Of a stretch of 32,004 bases of DNA, positions 1 to 15,526 are shown one piece after another. The notes beneath the pieces were generated by a model, which saw nothing but the letters and a program-made list of their open reading frames with translations, ran no database searches and was not told the DNA's origin. How positions within the stretch are numbered: the stretch's first letter is position 1; each line of letters opens with the position of its first letter. Origin of the DNA: Escherichia coli (GTDB lineage: Bacteria; Pseudomonadota; Gammaproteobacteria; Enterobacterales; Enterobacteriaceae); NCBI RefSeq assembly GCF_003334815.1, contig NZ_QOWO01000042.1; one strand, 5' to 3'. The position numbers and the translations under genes are program-made.

Positions 1-70
1 CGTGTCAGTGGTGGCGCATTATAGGGAGTTATTCCGGCCTGACAAGAGGAAATTTAAAATAATTTTCTGA
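1..70 (-). promoter_or_regulatory. rRNA-operon P1-type sigma70 promoter with AT-rich UP element, transcribing leftward out of the window
   Basis: Minus-strand reading gives AGAAAATTATTTTAAATTTCCTC (UP element) - TTGTCA (-35, + coords ~40-45) - 16 bp spacer - TATAAT (-10, ~18-23) - GCGCCACC discriminator - start near pos 9. Matches the rrn P1 architecture from memory. Confidence 0.8.
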
Positions 71-94
71 CCGCGCATTTTTTATTCTTTATGC

Positions 95-640
95 TTATTT
101 CAGCGTCGGTTTGTCGGTTAAATGGGCGATTTCTCGGGCGAAATTCGCCACCTGCTCCCAATCGGTATAGACAACTTCTTTGCGCGTATCCGTTTCACCG
201 CCTGACATCTTCATAATCAGCTTGATCATAAAACGGTCGTACCAGCGATAACGTGGGTAACGCAGCGCCCCGGCAATGACCGCGCAGCGATCGGGACGCC
301 ATTGCGAGTTCATCAGAAACTTGCGCGCGTAGCTGTTGGTCTGTGGAGTACGCTTCTCCGGTTTGCGCGCCACCAGATTCACGGAGTAAAAGGCGCTCGG
401 CATCGAATTCAGCCGCGTCGCATGTTTTTTGACAAATTCCTGGAACGCTGAATGGTAGTGACCATAGCGAATAGAAGCACCAATGACCACACGGTCATAG
501 TTTTCCCACTGTGGTTCTTCAATGCGGTGCACATTGGCGACATCCGCCTGGATCCCCAGTTCTTTCAGTTCCGAAGCCAGGTAGGAGGCAATCTCGCGCG
601 TTTGTCCGTCCCTTGTTGAGAAAAGAATTAATGTTTTCAC
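95..640 (-). CDS. hemG: Protoporphyrinogen IX oxidase HemG (flavodoxin-like), 181 aa, GTG start
   Basis: ORF track protein [29 protein letters not shown]... recognised as HemG; start codon on the sequence is GTG (cac on + strand at 638-640). Confidence 0.93.
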
Positions 641-651
641 GTATTACTCCA

Positions 652-2103
652 TCATTCACGCCAGAAAGTCGGGGTAAAGAGCACCAGCAATGTAAAGACC
701 TCGAGACGACCAAACAGCATGTTGGCAATCAGGATCCATTTAGCCACCGGGTTCATACTGGTAAAGTTATCAGCAACCACGCCAAGCCCTGGCCCCAGGT
801 TATTCAATGTCGCAACAACCGACGCAAAGGCAGAAAAGTCATCCACGCCCGTGGCGATAATCGCCAGCATACTGACAATAAACACCAATGCATAGGCGGA
901 GAAAAATCCCCAAACGGCTTCGAGGATACGTTCCGGCAGTGCGCGATTCCCCAGCTTAATGCTATAGACGGCGTTCGGATGCACCAGTCGTTTCAGCTCA
1001 CGGTTCCCCTGCTTAAACAGCAGCAGGATGCGGATCACCTTCAGGCCACCGCCCGTTGACCCGGCGCAACCGCCGATAAAGGCTGAACATAAAAGCAGTA
1101 CCGGCAAAAAGAGCGGCCAGCGGGCAATGCTGTCAGTTGTAAACCCGGCGGTTGTCGCCATCGACACCACCTGGAAAAACGCCTGGTTAATTGTCATCAG
1201 CGCCGAACTGTAGACATTATGAAACCACAGTACGAGGGTACAAATAACCACCAGCGTAAACTGTACGCCGATAAACATGCGAAATTCCGGATCGCGCCAA
1301 TAAACCTTCAGACTACGCCCACTTAACAGTGAAAAGTGCAGACCGTAGTTACAGCCGGAGATCAGCAGGAAGATAGCAATGATAGTGTTAATAGTCGGGC
1401 TATCGAAATAACCGATACTGGCATCATGTGTCGAGAAGCCGCCAATAGCGATAGTCGCAAAGCTATGGCCGATGGCATCAAAGGCATCCATTCCGGCAAA
1501 CCACAACGCCAGCGCACAGGCGACGGTCAGCAAGACATAAATCAACCACAGGGTTTTCGCCGTTTCCGCAATTCGCGGGCGCATTTTGTTATCTTTCAGC
1601 GGGCCGGGCATTTCTGCGCGATAGAGCTGCATCCCACCCACGCCGAGGATAGGCAGTATCGCAACCGCCAACACGATGATCCCCATCCCGCCAAACCATT
1701 GCAGCATCTGGCGATAAAAGAGGATGGCGTGAGGGAGCGAATCCAGCCCCACCAGCGTAGTGGCTCCCGTAGTGGTCAGGCCAGAGAAAGATTCAAAAAA
1801 CGCATCGGTAATCGTGAGGTTCGGGCTTTCCGAGAAAATAAAAGGGAGCGCACCGACGCTACCCAGCACGGTCCAGAACAGCACCACTATCAGAAACCCC
1901 TCACGGGATTTAAGTTCGCCTTTCTCTTTGCGGTTCGGCCACCACAGCATAGAGCCAATGGCGAGGGCGACAAAAAAGGTCTGGGTAAAAGCGCGGCCCG
2001 CTCCATCCCGGTAGATGAGTGCTACCAGCCCAGGGATAATCATGGTCCCTGAAAATAAGATGACCAGTAGTCCAACGATTCGGGTAATGGCGCGAAAATG
2101 CAT
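652..2103 (-). CDS. trkH: Potassium uptake protein TrkH, 483 aa, polytopic membrane protein
   Basis: 483-aa hydrophobic ORF beginning MHFRAITRIVGLLVILFSGTMIIPGLVALIYRDG, recognised as TrkH; 11-bp spacer to hemG. Confidence 0.93.
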   Translation of the reverse strand: MHFRAITRIVGLLVILFSGTMIIPGLVALIYRDGAGRAFTQTFFVALAIGSMLWWPNRKEKGELKSREGFLIVVLFWTVLGSVGALPFIFSESPNLTITDAFFESFSGLTTTGATTLVGLDSLPHAILFYRQMLQWFGGMGIIVLAVAILPILGVGGMQLYRAEMPGPLKDNKMRPRIAETAKTLWLIYVLLTVACALALWFAGMDAFDAIGHSFATIAIGGFSTHDASIGYFDSPTINTIIAIFLLISGCNYGLHFSLLSGRSLKVYWRDPEFRMFIGVQFTLVVICTLVLWFHNVYSSALMTINQAFFQVVSMATTAGFTTDSIARWPLFLPVLLLCSAFIGGCAGSTGGGLKVIRILLLFKQGNRELKRLVHPNAVYSIKLGNRALPERILEAVWGFFSAYALVFIVSMLAIIATGVDDFSAFASVVATLNNLGPGLGVVADNFTSMNPVAKWILIANMLFGRLEVFTLLVLFTPTFWRE

Positions 2104-2141
2104 CTCTGCCGCTTCCTTAGTTCTGCAAAACGAAGTGGGGA

Positions 2142-2756
2142 TTATTCTTCAATCGCTAACAATTGCAATGAACCACGGCTAAAATCCGCCAGCTTTGCGG
2201 AAAATTCAGCCACTTTCGCCGCCGGAAGCGCCACCCGCAGCAGAACGAATGCCTGATAATCACTGTTGATAATTTTGCCGTCACACTGCCCCAGCAACGC
2301 TTCAATGCCGGTTAACTGATGATATTCACATTGCAAAGTATATTCGGTTAATGGCGTCTTGCGTTGGGTCGTTAGCTGGCGCAGCGCCTGATTCACGCCG
2401 CCGCCATACGCTTTCACTAACCCACCGGTGCCAAGCAATATGCCGCCGTAGTAGCGCACTACCACAGCGGTAATTTCCCCGACGCCGCTGCCCATTAGCT
2501 GGGCGAGCATCGGTTTACCTGCCGTTCCCGCCGGCTCCCCGTCGTCAGAGAAACCCAGCTGTTGAGAATCATCCGGCGCACCCGCGACCCACGCCACGCA
2601 ATGGTGCCGGGCATCGGGGTGTTCTGCCCGCACCGATTCAACAAACGCTTTCGCCGCCTCAACGCCATCGGTATGCGCCAACATCGTTATGAAGCGGCTC
2701 TTTTTGATCTCTTCAACGACCGTGACCGGTGCCGCAGGAATTAACCAGCTTTCCAT
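2142..2756 (-). CDS. yigZ: IMPACT-family protein YigZ, 204 aa
   Basis: ORF track gives [20 protein letters not shown]...; the first codon is GTG and the second is ATG. ATG at 2754-2756 taken as start, overlapping the pepQ TGA by 1 nt. Confidence 0.88.
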   Translation of the reverse strand: MESWLIPAAPVTVVEEIKKSRFITMLAHTDGVEAAKAFVESVRAEHPDARHHCVAWVAGAPDDSQQLGFSDDGEPAGTAGKPMLAQLMGSGVGEITAVVVRYYGGILLGTGGLVKAYGGGVNQALRQLTTQRKTPLTEYTLQCEYHQLTGIEALLGQCDGKIINSDYQAFVLLRVALPAAKVAEFSAKLADFSRGSLQLLAIEE

Positions 2757-4087
2757 CACGCCAGTTTCAGATCCCGGGTCATGTTTTCCACGTTGTTTTC
2801 GTGGATCACCACGTTGTCTTCGATACGAATGCCGCCGAACGGTTTCAGTGCTTCAATTTTCTGCCAGTTGAAGTGCTTGCTGAACTGCCCTTCACGCCAC
2901 GGTGCCAGTAGCGATTCGATGAAGTAGATACCCGGTTCGATGGTTAACACCATGCCCGGCTGGAGAATACGGGTGCAGCGCAGGTACGGATATTTTGCCG
3001 GTGCCGCGAGGTGCGTACCGCTATCATCCTGCATAAAACCAGCGACGTCATGCACCTGCAGGCCCAGCGGATGGCCGATACCATGCGGCATAAACGGCCC
3101 GGTAAGATCGTTTTCGACCATCGCTTCTTCACTCATATCGGTGATGATTTGATGTTTACGCAGCAGTTTGGCGATGCGCTGATGGAACTGGATGTGGTAA
3201 TCCACATAGCTGACGCCTGCTTTCATGGTGGCGATCAGCGCCAGTTGTTCATCATTAACGTCCTTCACCAGCTGCGCGTAGTCGTTGTCACTTTTTGCCG
3301 ACCAGGTACGGGTCAGGTCAGCCGCATAGCCGTTATATTCTGCCCCGGCATCCAGCAGGAAGCTGCGCATCTCTTCCGGTGCCTGATGGTCCAGTTTGGT
3401 GTAATGCAGTACCGCAGCGTGTTCGTTAAGCGCCACAATGTTGCTGTAAGGTACGTCGGTATCACGATGACCGGTCGCGGTCAGATAGGCAATGTTGATA
3501 TCGAACTCGCTCATGCCAGAACGGAACGCTTCTTCTGCCGCGCGGTGACCGTTGACCGCCATTTTCTGCGCTTCACGCATACAGGCCAGTTCGTACTCAG
3601 TTTTGAAGGAGCGATAGTAATGCAGGTAGTCGATAACCCCTTTCGGGTTGATGTTGCTGGCCTCAATACCCAGTTGCAGCGCACGTTCCGGCACCGGACC
3701 GATATAACCGATATTGCCGCGCGCAGCAGGCAGCAGGCTACCAATGCCATCGGCTTTCGGCAGCGCGATCACTTCCACATCTTCAGTCCAGAAAGAGGTC
3801 GGCAGCGGTTCGACGTTGTGCCAGTAATCAACCGGCAGATAGAACCACAGTTTCGGCTTGTTCACGCCATCCACCAGCAACCAGCAGTTTGGCACCTGAG
3901 TTACCGGCACCCACGCTTTGAATTGCGGGTTCACTTTAAACGGATAGGGATGATCGTCGAGAAAAACATTGAACAGCTCGCCGGAGTGAATAAGTAACGC
4001 ATCCAGCTTGAAGCGCGCCAGCGCATCGCGAGTCCGTTCTTGTAAGGTAGCTATATGATTTTTATAGAGCGAGGCCAGTGATTCCAT
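2756..4087 (-). CDS. pepQ: Xaa-Pro dipeptidase (prolidase) PepQ, 443 aa
   Basis: 443-aa [40 protein letters not shown]... recognised as PepQ (M24 metallopeptidase family). Confidence 0.93.
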
Positions 4088-4234: not shown

Positions 4235-4251
4235 ATCTGGTACGACCAGAT
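4235..4251 (+). promoter_or_regulatory. FadR operator in the fadBA promoter
   Basis: Near-perfect dyad ATCTGGTACGACCAGAT about 25 bp upstream of the fadB ATG; fits the FadR operator consensus (TGGT-N3-ACCA core). Confidence 0.8.
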
Positions 4252-4276: not shown

Positions 4277-6466
4277 ATGCTTTACAAAGGCGACACCCTG
4301 TACCTTGACTGGCTGGAAGATGGCATTGCCGAACTGGTATTTGATGCCCCAGGTTCAGTTAATAAACTCGACACTGCGACCGTCGCCAGCCTCGGCGAGG
4401 CCATCGGCGTGCTGGAACAGCAATCAGATCTAAAAGGGCTGCTGCTGCGTTCGAACAAAGCAGCCTTTATCGTCGGTGCTGATATCACCGAATTTTTGTC
4501 CCTGTTCCTCGTTCCTGAAGAACAGTTAAGTCAGTGGCTGCACTTTGCCAATAGCGTGTTTAATCGCCTGGAAGATCTGCCGGTGCCGACCATTGCTGCC
4601 GTCAATGGCTATGCGCTGGGCGGTGGCTGCGAATGCGTGCTGGCGACCGATTATCGTCTGGCGACGCCGGATCTGCGCATCGGTCTGCCGGAAACCAAAC
4701 TGGGCATCATGCCTGGCTTTGGCGGTTCTGTACGTATGCCACGTATGCTGGGCGCTGACAGTGCGCTGGAAATCATTGCCGCCGGTAAAGATGTCGGCGC
4801 GGATCAGGCGCTGAAAATCGGTCTGGTGGATGGCGTAGTCAAAGCAGAAAAACTGGTTGAAGGCGCAAAGGCGGTTTTACGCCAGGCCATTAACGGCGAC
4901 CTCGACTGGAAAGCAAAACGTCAGCCGAAGCTGGAACCACTAAAACTGAGCAAGATTGAAGCCACCATGAGCTTCACCATCGCTAAAGGGATGGTCGCAC
5001 AAACAGCGGGGAAACATTATCCGGCCCCCATCACCGCAGTAAAAACCATTGAAGCTGCGGCCCGTTTTGGTCGTGAAGAAGCCTTAAACCTGGAAAACAA
5101 AAGTTTTGTCCCGCTGGCGCATACCAACGAAGCCCGCGCACTGGTCGGCATTTTCCTTAACGATCAATATGTAAAAGGCAAAGCGAAGAAACTCACCAAA
5201 GACGTTGAAACCCCGAAACAGGCCGCGGTGCTGGGTGCAGGCATTATGGGCGGCGGCATCGCTTACCAGTCTGCGTGGAAAGGCGTGCCGGTTGTCATGA
5301 AAGATATCAACGACAAGTCGTTAACCCTCGGCATGACCGAAGCCGCGAAACTGCTGAACAAGCAGCTTGAGCGCGGCAAGATCGATGGTCTGAAACTGGC
5401 TGGCGTGATCTCCACAATCCACCCAACGCTCGACTACGCCGGATTTGACCGCGTGGATATTGTGGTAGAAGCGGTTGTTGAAAACCCGAAAGTGAAAAAA
5501 GCCGTACTGGCAGAAACCGAACAAAAAGTACGCCAGGATACCGTGCTGGCGTCTAACACTTCAACCATTCCTATCAGCGAACTGGCCAACGCGCTGGAAC
5601 GCCCGGAAAACTTCTGCGGGATGCACTTCTTTAACCCGGTCCACCGAATGCCGTTGGTAGAAATTATTCGCGGCGAGAAAAGCTCCGACGAAACCATCGC
5701 GAAAGTTGTCGCCTGGGCGAGCAAGATGGGCAAGACGCCGATTGTGGTTAACGACTGCCCCGGCTTCTTTGTTAACCGCGTGCTGTTCCCGTATTTCGCC
5801 GGTTTCAGCCAGCTGCTGCGCGACGGCGCGGATTTCCGCAAGATCGACAAAGTGATGGAAAAACAGTTTGGCTGGCCGATGGGCCCGGCATATCTGCTGG
5901 ACGTTGTGGGCATTGATACCGCGCATCACGCTCAGGCTGTCATGGCAGCAGGCTTCCCGCAGCGGATGCAGAAAGATTACCGCGATGCCATCGACGCGCT
6001 GTTTGATGCCAACCGCTTTGGTCAGAAGAACGGCCTCGGTTTCTGGCGTTATAAAGAAGACAGCAAAGGTAAGCCGAAGAAAGAAGAAGACGCCGCCGTT
6101 GAAGACCTGCTGGCAGAAGTGAGCCAGCCGAAGCGCGATTTCAGCGAAGAAGAGATTATCGCCCGCATGATGATCCCGATGGTCAACGAAGTGGTGCGCT
6201 GTCTGGAGGAAGGCATTATCGCCACTCCGGCGGAAGCGGATATGGCGCTGGTCTACGGCCTGGGCTTCCCTCCGTTCCACGGCGGCGCGTTCCGCTGGCT
6301 GGACACCCTCGGTAGCGCAAAATACCTCGATATGGCACAGCAATATCAGCACCTCGGCCCGCTGTATGAAGTGCCGGAAGGTCTGCGTAATAAAGCGCGT
6401 CATAACGAACCGTACTATCCTCCGGTTGAGCCAGCCCGTCCGGTTGGCGACCTGAAAACGGCTTAA
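4277..6466 (+). CDS. fadB: Fatty-acid oxidation complex alpha subunit FadB (enoyl-CoA hydratase / 3-hydroxyacyl-CoA dehydrogenase), 729 aa
   Basis: ORF track 4151..6466; accepted N-terminus [23 protein letters not shown] begins at the ATG at 4277, preceded by GGAG; the upstream in-frame extension is rejected. Confidence 0.93.

Positions 6467-7645: not shown

Positions 7646-7830
<185 letters not shown>

Positions 7831-10283: not shown

Positions 10284-11596
<1,313 letters not shown>

Positions 11597-13283: not shown

Positions 13284-15526
<2,243 letters not shown>

What the first reader, a model, noticed from the sequence alone, without database searches (positions are those of the whole stretch)
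2754..2758. pepQ-yigZ-trkH-hemG co-directional cluster with TGATG stop/start overlap between pepQ and yigZ
The pepQ stop (TGA) and yigZ ATG share one nucleotide, which suggests translational coupling. Tight spacing continues through trkH (38 bp) and hemG (11 bp, GTG start). This operon-like arrangement couples a peptidase, an IMPACT-family protein, a K+ transporter and a haem biosynthesis enzyme, which is functionally heterogeneous.
Basis: seen in the sequence. Interest (0 to 1): 0.15.

Follow-up and report, generated by a model that had tools for sequence, protein, structure and literature searches.

The report
Known E. coli pepQ-yigZ-trkH-hemG operon
This is the well-known pepQ-yigZ-trkH-hemG gene cluster of E. 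coli K-12, in which the first gene's stop codon shares one base with the second gene's start codon; this layout is common in bacteria, so the finding is correct but ordinary.

Summary
The window is E. coli K-12 MG1655 DNA, and the four genes lie on the minus strand: pepQ 4087-2756, yigZ 2756-2142, trkH 2103-652 and hemG 640-95. On that strand 2758-2754 reads TGATG, so the pepQ TGA and the yigZ ATG share base 2756. The gaps are 38 nt and 11 nt, and hemG starts with GTG.

All 80 Enterobacteriaceae species sampled keep the 1-nt overlap (TAATG 45, TGATG 35), although the stop codon and nearby synonymous sites vary. yigZ almost never has a usable Shine-Dalgarno sequence; trkH and hemG always do. 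The alternative GTG start is present in only 7 of 80. This fits translation of yigZ by termination-reinitiation after pepQ, but it does not prove it.

The four-gene operon is already listed in the literature, and -1 nt overlaps are the second most common overlap class in prokaryotes.

Two small additions:
- The yigZ-trkH-hemG core extends to Pasteurellaceae, Psychromonas, Shewanella and Paraferrimonas.
- The last nine yigZ codons carry an invariant sigma70-like TTGCAA-16-AATAAT with frozen synonymous sites. It is a candidate internal promoter for trkH-hemG and has not been verified experimentally.

Verdict: already known, low interest.

The parts
2756..4087 (-). pepQ, Xaa-Pro dipeptidase (443 aa), ATG start, TGA stop at 2758-2756
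   Evidence: NCBIfam NF010133 equivalog, 794 bits against a cut-off of 339; RefSeq annotation; translation
2754..2758 (-). TGATG stop/start overlap: pepQ TGA (2758-2756) and yigZ ATG (2756-2754) share base 2756
   Evidence: Sequence; the same -1 nt spacing in 80 of 80 Enterobacteriaceae species, TAATG 45 and TGATG 35, and in two more distant loci, L095 and L096
2142..2756 (-). yigZ, IMPACT/YigZ family protein (204 aa), function unknown
   Evidence: NCBIfam NF008600 and TIGR00257 above cut-off; aligns without mismatch over its full length to PDB 1VI7 'hypothetical protein yigZ'; no well-placed SD
2141..2168 (-). Candidate internal sigma70 promoter for trkH-hemG: -35 TTGCAA (2168-2163), 16-nt spacer, -10 AATAAT (2146-2141, includes the yigZ TAA stop). 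Inferred, no transcription start mapped
   Evidence: Consensus scan, 9 of 12 matches. Both hexamers are near-invariant in the 80 species (-35 TTGCAA in about 70, TTGCAT in the rest), and the spacer sequence varies at constant length. Five of the 10 synonymously frozen yigZ codons fall in the last 9 codons, p=2.8e-6 for that window, 197 windows tested
2112..2118 (-). Shine-Dalgarno sequence of trkH (AAGGAAG, 8 nt before the ATG)
   Evidence: conserved, duplex at or below -5 kcal/mol in 76 of 78 loci
652..2103 (-). trkH, Trk system K+ transporter (483 aa)
   Evidence: NCBIfam NF008020, 1076 bits against a cut-off of 866; annotation
647..650 (-). Shine-Dalgarno sequence of hemG (GGAG, 6 nt before the GTG), inside the 11-nt trkH-hemG spacer
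   Evidence: duplex at or below -5 kcal/mol in 74 of 74 loci
95..640 (-). hemG, menaquinone-dependent protoporphyrinogen IX dehydrogenase (181 aa), GTG start
   Evidence: NCBIfam NF008316, 334 bits against a cut-off of 142. The start position is conserved with a 10-12 nt gap, while the start codon varies: GTG 54, TTG 13, ATG 7
2281..2281 (-). Published Term-seq RNA 3' end inside yigZ (nt 476 of yigZ, 177 nt before trkH; MG1655 coordinate 4032968); window coordinate computed by me
   Evidence: Supplement of PMC7815308

Best explanation
This is the chromosomal pepQ-yigZ-trkH-hemG operon of E. coli K-12, lying between the divergent fadBA operon and rrnA. pepQ and yigZ form a translationally coupled pair. 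A ribosome terminating at the pepQ UGA sits directly on the yigZ AUG, which shares the A of the stop codon. It reinitiates there (termination-reinitiation), which substitutes for the Shine-Dalgarno sequence that yigZ lacks. trkH (38 nt downstream) and hemG (11 nt downstream) each carry a good Shine-Dalgarno sequence and are initiated mainly de novo; hemG may get some additional coupling from trkH. Transcription comes from a promoter upstream of pepQ. It probably also comes from an internal promoter embedded in the last codons of yigZ that boosts trkH-hemG. Shown here: sequence, gene identities, spacing, conservation, and absence or presence of Shine-Dalgarno sequences. Taken from the literature: operon status. 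Inferred: coupling by reinitiation, and activity of the internal promoter.
For: The window is 100% identical to MG1655, and the locus is present in 5426 of 5426 complete E. coli genomes. Annotation and family models confirm all four genes. The cluster is listed as a four-gene operon in PMC4421995 and in Dickeya (PMC6637903). The -1 nt overlap is invariant in 80 of 80 Enterobacteriaceae species despite TAA/TGA switching, variable flanking synonymous sites, and indels at the two other junctions. TAG is never used; it would remove the A of the ATG. The best anti-SD duplex before yigZ has a median of -3.2 kcal/mol and reaches -5 or below in 1 of 80. The medians for trkH and hemG are -5.6 and -6.6. 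In E. coli the only GGGA lies about 15-19 nt upstream, too far to serve. The review PMC12548453 states that -1 nt is an enriched spacing and that coupling is most efficient between -4 and +3 nt. It also notes that trpE-trpD, the first coupled pair described, has -1 nt spacing. Huber et al. found coupling in 4 of 5 native overlapping E. coli pairs (PMC6728339). Internal promoter.
Against: No experiment on this gene pair was found. Huber et al. saw one overlapping E. coli pair (bioBF) that initiates de novo despite a weak SD, so overlap alone does not guarantee coupling. No RNA structure that would block de novo initiation at yigZ is predicted (z = -0.75). Outside Enterobacteriaceae the pepQ/yigZ junction as called differs: -8, -11 and +10 nt. 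A Term-seq 3' end inside yigZ and the candidate internal promoter mean the four genes need not always be on one transcript. I could not retrieve any mapped transcription start for pepQ or trkH.
Confidence: 0.75

Rival explanations
1. The overlap is only genome compaction or a neutral legacy. yigZ is translated by independent de novo initiation (for example S1-mediated or on an unstructured A-rich region), and pepQ translation does not matter.
For: The junction is predicted to be unstructured (z = -0.75), which would allow 30S access. Huber et al. found one overlapping E. coli pair (bioBF) with de novo initiation despite a weak SD. Junction spacing differs in distant relatives.
Against: The spacing is invariant in 80 of 80 species, while the other two junctions gained and lost bases. 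A usable SD is consistently absent before yigZ but present before trkH and hemG. -1 nt pairs are generally coupled.
Confidence: 0.2
2. The cluster works mostly as two transcription units. pepQ-yigZ comes from the pepQ promoter, with part of the transcripts ending inside yigZ. trkH-hemG comes from an internal sigma70 promoter embedded in the last yigZ codons (-35 TTGCAA 2168-2163, -10 AATAAT 2146-2141). This is compatible with pepQ-yigZ coupling but weakens the picture of one four-gene operon.
For: The consensus scan hits this site with 9 of 12 matches. Both hexamers and their 16-nt spacing are conserved across 80 species, while the spacer sequence changes. Synonymous sites are frozen exactly there, using non-preferred codons TTG, CAA and ATT, with window p = 2.8e-6 (about 5e-4 after correcting for 197 windows); this is the strongest such cluster in the four genes. 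A Term-seq 3' end lies at yigZ nt 476, upstream of the element. In Dickeya, pepQ and yigZ insertions have no phenotype although trkH insertions do, which suggests little polarity.
Against: No mapped transcription start was found; the supplements of three transcriptome papers had no entry. The -35 matches only 4 of 6. The conserved bases could serve another purpose, such as a protein-binding site or an RNA processing signal. The region was picked after it had been seen, so the p-value is partly post hoc. The element is not seen outside Enterobacteriaceae, where the yigZ-trkH gaps are -1 to +40 nt with other sequences.
Confidence: 0.45
3. yigZ really starts at the GTG one codon upstream (2759-2757), giving the classic 4-nt GTGA overlap and a 205-aa protein.
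For: GTGATG is present in E. coli, and the ORF listing reports the 205-aa ORF. -4 nt is the commonest overlap class.
Against: The GTG is present in only 7 of 80 species; the others have GTA or CTG there, while the ATG is present in 80 of 80. The NCBIfam model (204 positions) and RefSeq use the ATG.
Confidence: 0.04

Closest known systems
trpE-trpD of the E. coli trp operon (the first translationally coupled pair described; -1 nt spacing)
   Same: Co-directional genes in one operon whose stop and start codons have -1 nt spacing, so a terminating ribosome sits on the next start codon (PMC12548453).
   Different: trpE and trpD encode subunits of one enzyme complex, and coupling was shown experimentally. 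PepQ and YigZ have no known functional or physical relationship, and coupling here is only inferred.
Overlapping E. coli gene pairs shown to use termination-reinitiation (hyfHI, astDB, ydbH/ynbE, menDH; Huber et al. 2019)
   Same: [quoted passage not shown]
   Different: Those pairs have the 4-nt ATGA overlap and usually an SD inside the upstream gene that contributes to reinitiation. pepQ-yigZ has a 1-nt overlap and no well-placed SD.
pepQ-yigZ-trkH-hemG operon as catalogued for E. coli K-12 and Dickeya dadantii
   Same: Identical: same genes, order, strand relationship and spacing.
   Different: Nothing differs. The only additions here are the cross-species junction statistics and the candidate internal promoter.

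Membership tests
Translationally coupled -1 nt overlapping gene pair (termination-reinitiation class) | Two co-directional protein-coding genes whose stop and start codons overlap as TGATG or TAATG | tested here: met
   Minus strand 2758-2754 = TGATG; frames verified by translation and by annotation
Translationally coupled -1 nt overlapping gene pair (termination-reinitiation class) | The arrangement is maintained by selection (conserved spacing in relatives) | tested here: met
   80 of 80 Enterobacteriaceae species keep -1 nt while the stop codon, flanking synonymous sites and the other junctions vary; also L095 and L096. Not kept in more distant gammaproteobacteria
Translationally coupled -1 nt overlapping gene pair (termination-reinitiation class) | Both genes are on one mRNA | not testable with these tools
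   Literature lists the operon (PMC4421995; PMC6637903). No promoter-like or terminator-like site at the junction. No primary transcript data could be retrieved
Translationally coupled -1 nt overlapping gene pair (termination-reinitiation class) | Translation of the downstream gene depends on translation of the upstream gene | not testable with these tools
   Needs a reporter experiment with a premature stop codon. The only indirect support is the lack of an SD before yigZ
PepQ Xaa-Pro dipeptidase | Full-length match to the NCBIfam equivalog NF010133 above its curated cut-off | tested here: met
   794.2 bits against 339, residues 1-442 of 443
YigZ / IMPACT family | Full-length match to NF008600 and TIGR00257; Impact_N plus DUF1949 domains | tested here: met
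   402 bits against 298, and 293 bits against 168; homologues carry PF01205 and PF09186; aligns without mismatch over residues 1-204 to PDB 1VI7
TrkH K+ transporter | Full-length match to NF008020 above cut-off | tested here: met
   1075.6 bits against 866
HemG menaquinone-dependent protoporphyrinogen IX dehydrogenase | Match to NF008316 above cut-off | tested here: met
   334.3 bits against 142
Sigma70 promoter (internal candidate before trkH) | -35 and -10 hexamers with 16-18 nt spacing | tested here: met
   TTGCAA-16-AATAAT, 9 of 12 matches; conserved in 80 loci; frozen synonymous sites
Sigma70 promoter (internal candidate before trkH) | A mapped transcription start about 7 nt downstream of the -10 | not tested
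   No entry found in the held supplements; Thomason 2015 is not held

The most novel reading that the evidence does not exclude
The yigZ-trkH-hemG trio, not pepQ, is the deeply conserved core. It recurs with start/stop overlaps or very short gaps in Pasteurellaceae, Psychromonas, Shewanella and Paraferrimonas. This might reflect a real functional partnership. The uncharacterised IMPACT-family protein YigZ and/or the flavodoxin-like quinone-linked HemG could modulate Trk K+ uptake, loosely as the flavoproteins KefF and KefG do for the Kef K+ efflux systems; that analogy is from my own knowledge and was not tested. The codon-embedded promoter in yigZ would then set the stoichiometry.
Probability: 0.08. 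Interest if true: 0.5.

Novelty: already known. Interest (0 to 1): 0.08.

Why it matters
It matters little. The locus is in the best-studied bacterial genome, the operon is catalogued, and 1-nt stop/start overlaps are a textbook feature of bacterial operons. The comparative work has modest value in three ways. It fixes the yigZ start codon at the ATG rather than the upstream GTG. It gives a clean natural example of a -1 nt pair with no Shine-Dalgarno sequence that could serve as a reinitiation test case. It also flags a conserved promoter-like element written into the last codons of yigZ. If that element is real, then yigZ deletions or codon changes could alter expression of trkH and of hemG, a haem-biosynthesis gene. 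This is relevant to interpreting yigZ mutant phenotypes such as the biofilm effect reported in PMC8743551.

Tried and rejected
- RNA structure at the junctions: folding 121 nt around pepQ/yigZ and 111 nt around yigZ/trkH gave energies no better than shuffled sequence (z = -0.75 and +0.07). There is no evidence for a start-occluding hairpin or an attenuator.
- Rfam: no family matches inside the four genes. The only hits in the window are EsrE and naRNA4 elsewhere.
- Terminator scan: 11 terminator-like sites against 4.8 +/- 2.2 expected. All lie inside coding sequence with poor T tails. None is at a junction or after hemG. The strongest (2470-2443) is about 160 nt from the published 3' end (about 2281), so I do not interpret it as a terminator.
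- GTG start at 2759: rejected on conservation, 7 of 80.
- Published transcription starts or synthesis rates:
  - Conway 2014 has no held supplements.
  - The SMRT-Cappable-seq and Kim 2012 supplements have no entry for these genes or b-numbers.
  - Li 2014 and Thomason 2015 are not held under the ids I tried.
  - The sigma-factor SELEX paper lists only a peak inside trkH in the RpoF set, which does not bear on the junctions.
- The search for homologous proteins returned only close relatives, so distant contexts were taken from the representative search instead.
- A PepQ'-YigZ 'fusion' protein (P0001) turned out to be a frameshifted gene call in a single E. coli record, not a natural fusion.

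Full report
**1. What is there**

The first 4300 bases of the window are 100% identical to E. coli K-12 MG1655. The locus occurs in all 5426 complete E. coli genomes searched. The RefSeq annotation places four co-directional genes on the minus strand:
- hemG at 95-640
- trkH at 652-2103
- yigZ at 2142-2756
- pepQ at 2756-4087

fadB diverges from position 4277, and the rrnA 16S gene lies just beyond position 1.

I re-derived the frames by translation:
- pepQ: 443 aa, ATG to TGA
- yigZ: 204 aa, ATG to TAA
- trkH: 483 aa, ATG to TGA
- hemG: 181 aa, GTG to TAA

Each protein matches its NCBIfam equivalog model over its full length and well above the curated cut-off. YigZ aligns without mismatch over residues 1-204 to the chain of PDB entry 1VI7, 'hypothetical protein yigZ'.

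**2. The observation**

Window 2754-2758 is CATCA, which reads TGATG on the coding strand. The pepQ TGA (2758-2756) and the yigZ ATG (2756-2754) share base 2756. The finding does not say that everything is on the minus strand.

It also misses an in-frame GTG one codon upstream of the ATG (GTGATG). That GTG would give a 4-nt GTGA overlap and is the start that the mechanical ORF list reports.

**3. Is it more than chance, and which start is used?**

I fetched the yigZ locus from 80 species-representative genomes. All are Enterobacteriaceae going by the record titles and sequence similarity. I located the four genes by tblastn and read the junctions.
- All 80 keep the 1-nt overlap: TAATG in 45 and TGATG in 35.
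- TAG never occurs. It would turn the start into GTG.
- The last pepQ codons vary freely at synonymous sites.
- Over the same species the other two junctions did gain and lose bases: 36-43 nt and 10-12 nt.
- The upstream GTG exists in only 7 of 80 species; the rest have GTA or CTG. The conserved start is therefore the ATG, and the overlap is 1 nt.
- The hemG start stays in position while its codon varies (GTG 54, TTG 13, ATG 7), which supports the annotated hemG start.

Two further loci with about 72% YigZ identity also show the upstream gene ending on the first base of yigZ.

According to the 2025 review by Brown and Wade (PMC12548453):
- -1 nt spacing is, after -4 nt, the most enriched spacing in prokaryotes.
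- Coupling is most efficient between -4 and +3 nt and falls 3- to 10-fold by about +40 nt.
- The first coupled pair ever described, trpE-trpD, has this same -1 nt spacing.

**4. Mechanism**

yigZ lacks a usable Shine-Dalgarno sequence.
- In E. coli the only purine-rich match (GGGA) lies about 15-19 nt upstream.
- Across the 80 species the best anti-SD duplex in the 22 nt before yigZ has a median of -3.2 kcal/mol and reaches -5 in only one.
- trkH (AAGGAAG) reaches -5 in 76 of 78 species and hemG (GGAG) in 74 of 74.
- No stable structure is predicted around either junction.

The simplest reading is that yigZ is translated by ribosomes that have just terminated on pepQ (termination-reinitiation). 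trkH and hemG are initiated mainly de novo, with some possible coupling at the 11-nt trkH-hemG gap.

This is inference. Huber et al. 2019 found coupling in 4 of 5 native overlapping E. coli pairs but de novo initiation in one (PMC6728339). No experiment on pepQ-yigZ was found.

**5. Transcription**

pepQ-yigZ-trkH-hemG is listed among the four-gene operons of E. coli in Esquerre et al. 2015 (PMC4421995). It is treated as one operon in a Dickeya dadantii Tn-seq study, where only trkH insertions had a phenotype (PMC6637903).

Two observations complicate the picture of a single transcript.
- Term-seq data in Adams et al. 2021 list an RNA 3' end inside yigZ at nt 476, 177 nt before trkH (PMC7815308). 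This is about window 2281.
- The promoter scan found TTGCAA-16-AATAAT at 2168-2141 on the minus strand, with the -10 containing the yigZ stop codon.

Evidence on that second element:
- In the 80 species both hexamers and their spacing are essentially invariant, while the 16-nt spacer, which encodes variable residues, changes.
- A codon-level test shows 10 of 146 conserved degenerate yigZ codons with essentially no synonymous variation. Five of these are in the last nine codons: TTG, CAA, ATT, GAA, TAA.
- The hypergeometric p for that window is 2.8e-6, or about 5e-4 after allowing for 197 windows.
- It is the strongest such cluster in any of the four genes, and it uses non-preferred codons.

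I interpret this as a probable internal promoter for trkH-hemG. No mapped transcription start could be retrieved, and other nucleotide-level functions are not excluded.

**6. How deep the arrangement goes**

I sampled YigZ relatives of 40-53% identity (organism names).

| Locus | Organism or source | Arrangement |
|---|---|---|
| L083 | unnamed sequencing-run assembly | fre-pepQ-yigZ-trkH-hemG |
| L089 | Paraferrimonas | fadBA divergent from pepQ-yigZ-trkH-hemG |
| L090 | marine metagenome contig | pepQ-yigZ-trkH |
| L085 | Psychromonas | rhodanese-yigZ-trkH-hemG |
| L087 | Volucribacter (Pasteurellaceae) | phosphatase-yigZ-trkH-hemG, with TAATG overlaps at both downstream junctions |
| L092 | Shewanella fodinae | fadBA divergent from yigZ-trkH-hemG |
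| L088, L091, L093, L094 | Desulfovibrio, Pokkaliibacter and two metagenomic contigs | yigZ without these neighbours |

In summary, yigZ-trkH adjacency holds in 6 of 10 samples, with hemG in 5 and with pepQ in 3. The cluster is therefore an old gammaproteobacterial arrangement whose core is yigZ-trkH-hemG. The particular 1-nt pepQ/yigZ overlap is a feature of Enterobacteriaceae and their near relatives; elsewhere the called junctions are -8, -11 or +10 nt.

**7. Comparison with what is known, and verdict**

The genes, the operon and the class of overlap are all known. The 'functional heterogeneity' is genuine and unexplained, since YigZ has no assigned function. Mixed-function operons are common, however.

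The extras from this analysis are minor:
- family-wide invariance of the junction
- confirmation of the ATG and GTG starts
- the conserved core of the cluster
- a candidate codon-embedded promoter

I rate the finding as already known, with interest about 0.08.

Noticed in passing
window 2141-2168 (-): Near-invariant sigma70-like TTGCAA-16-AATAAT inside the last codons of yigZ, with frozen synonymous sites in non-preferred codons. It is a candidate internal promoter for trkH-hemG. The bases just after the stop (TCCCC) are also conserved across 80 species.
   Followed up: partly
window 18-97 (-): The hemG stop (97-95) is followed after about 50 nt by a near-consensus promoter, TTGTCA-16-TATAAT (45-18, 11 of 12 matches), preceded by an A/T-rich stretch. 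By position this is rrnA P1 (my knowledge). No terminator-like site separates hemG from it, so operon transcripts may read into rrnA. The sequence downstream of hemG matches this region in at least 59 of 80 Enterobacteriaceae loci, and most draft contigs end there.
   Followed up: partly
window about 2281 (-): Published Term-seq RNA 3' end inside yigZ (nt 476; MG1655 4032968; PMC7815308 supplement), with no canonical terminator hairpin next to it. It could be a processing, Rho-dependent or decay end.
   Followed up: no
window 2337-2343 (-), yigZ codons 139-140: A second small patch of frozen synonymous sites (TAT ACT, a 7-nt run with at least 95% conservation), reading TATACT and followed by TTGCAA. 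Its purpose is unknown.
   Followed up: no
window 2782-2784 (-): An ACA triplet lies 28 nt upstream of the yigZ ATG, inside pepQ. The MazF-regulon study lists yigZ with the value 28, which fits a MazF cleavage site that would produce a short-leader yigZ mRNA (PMC5001579).
   Followed up: no
protein P0001 (one E. coli record): A 303-aa 'elongation factor' protein joins the PepQ C-terminal region to full-length YigZ. Its sequence shows a frameshift in the GAAAACAAC stretch about 45 nt before the junction, so it is a mutation or sequencing error and not a natural fusion.
   Followed up: yes
window 4235-4251: Inverted repeat ATCTGGT-ACG-ACCAGAT in the divergent fadB-pepQ intergenic region. From my own knowledge this is the FadR operator of fadBA. 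Whether it also affects pepQ transcription was not examined.
   Followed up: no
window 14921-15172 (-) and 7698-7775 (-): Rfam gathering-level hits: EsrE sRNA (RF02757, 319 bits), overlapping the ubiJ/ubiB junction, and naRNA4 (RF02564, 92 bits), downstream of fadA.
   Followed up: no
window 15019-15022, 10912-10915, 23273-23385: Other overlaps in the annotation: ubiJ/ubiB co-directional 4-nt overlap; rfaH/tatD convergent 4-nt overlap; metR/bioP convergent 113-nt overlap. These show that short overlaps are routine in this region.
   Followed up: no
trkH codons 1-9 (window 2077-2103, -): Synonymous sites of trkH codons 2, 3 and 8 (CAT, TTT, CGA) are frozen across 75 species (window p = 3.4e-4). 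This is typical of constraint on a translation initiation region.
   Followed up: no
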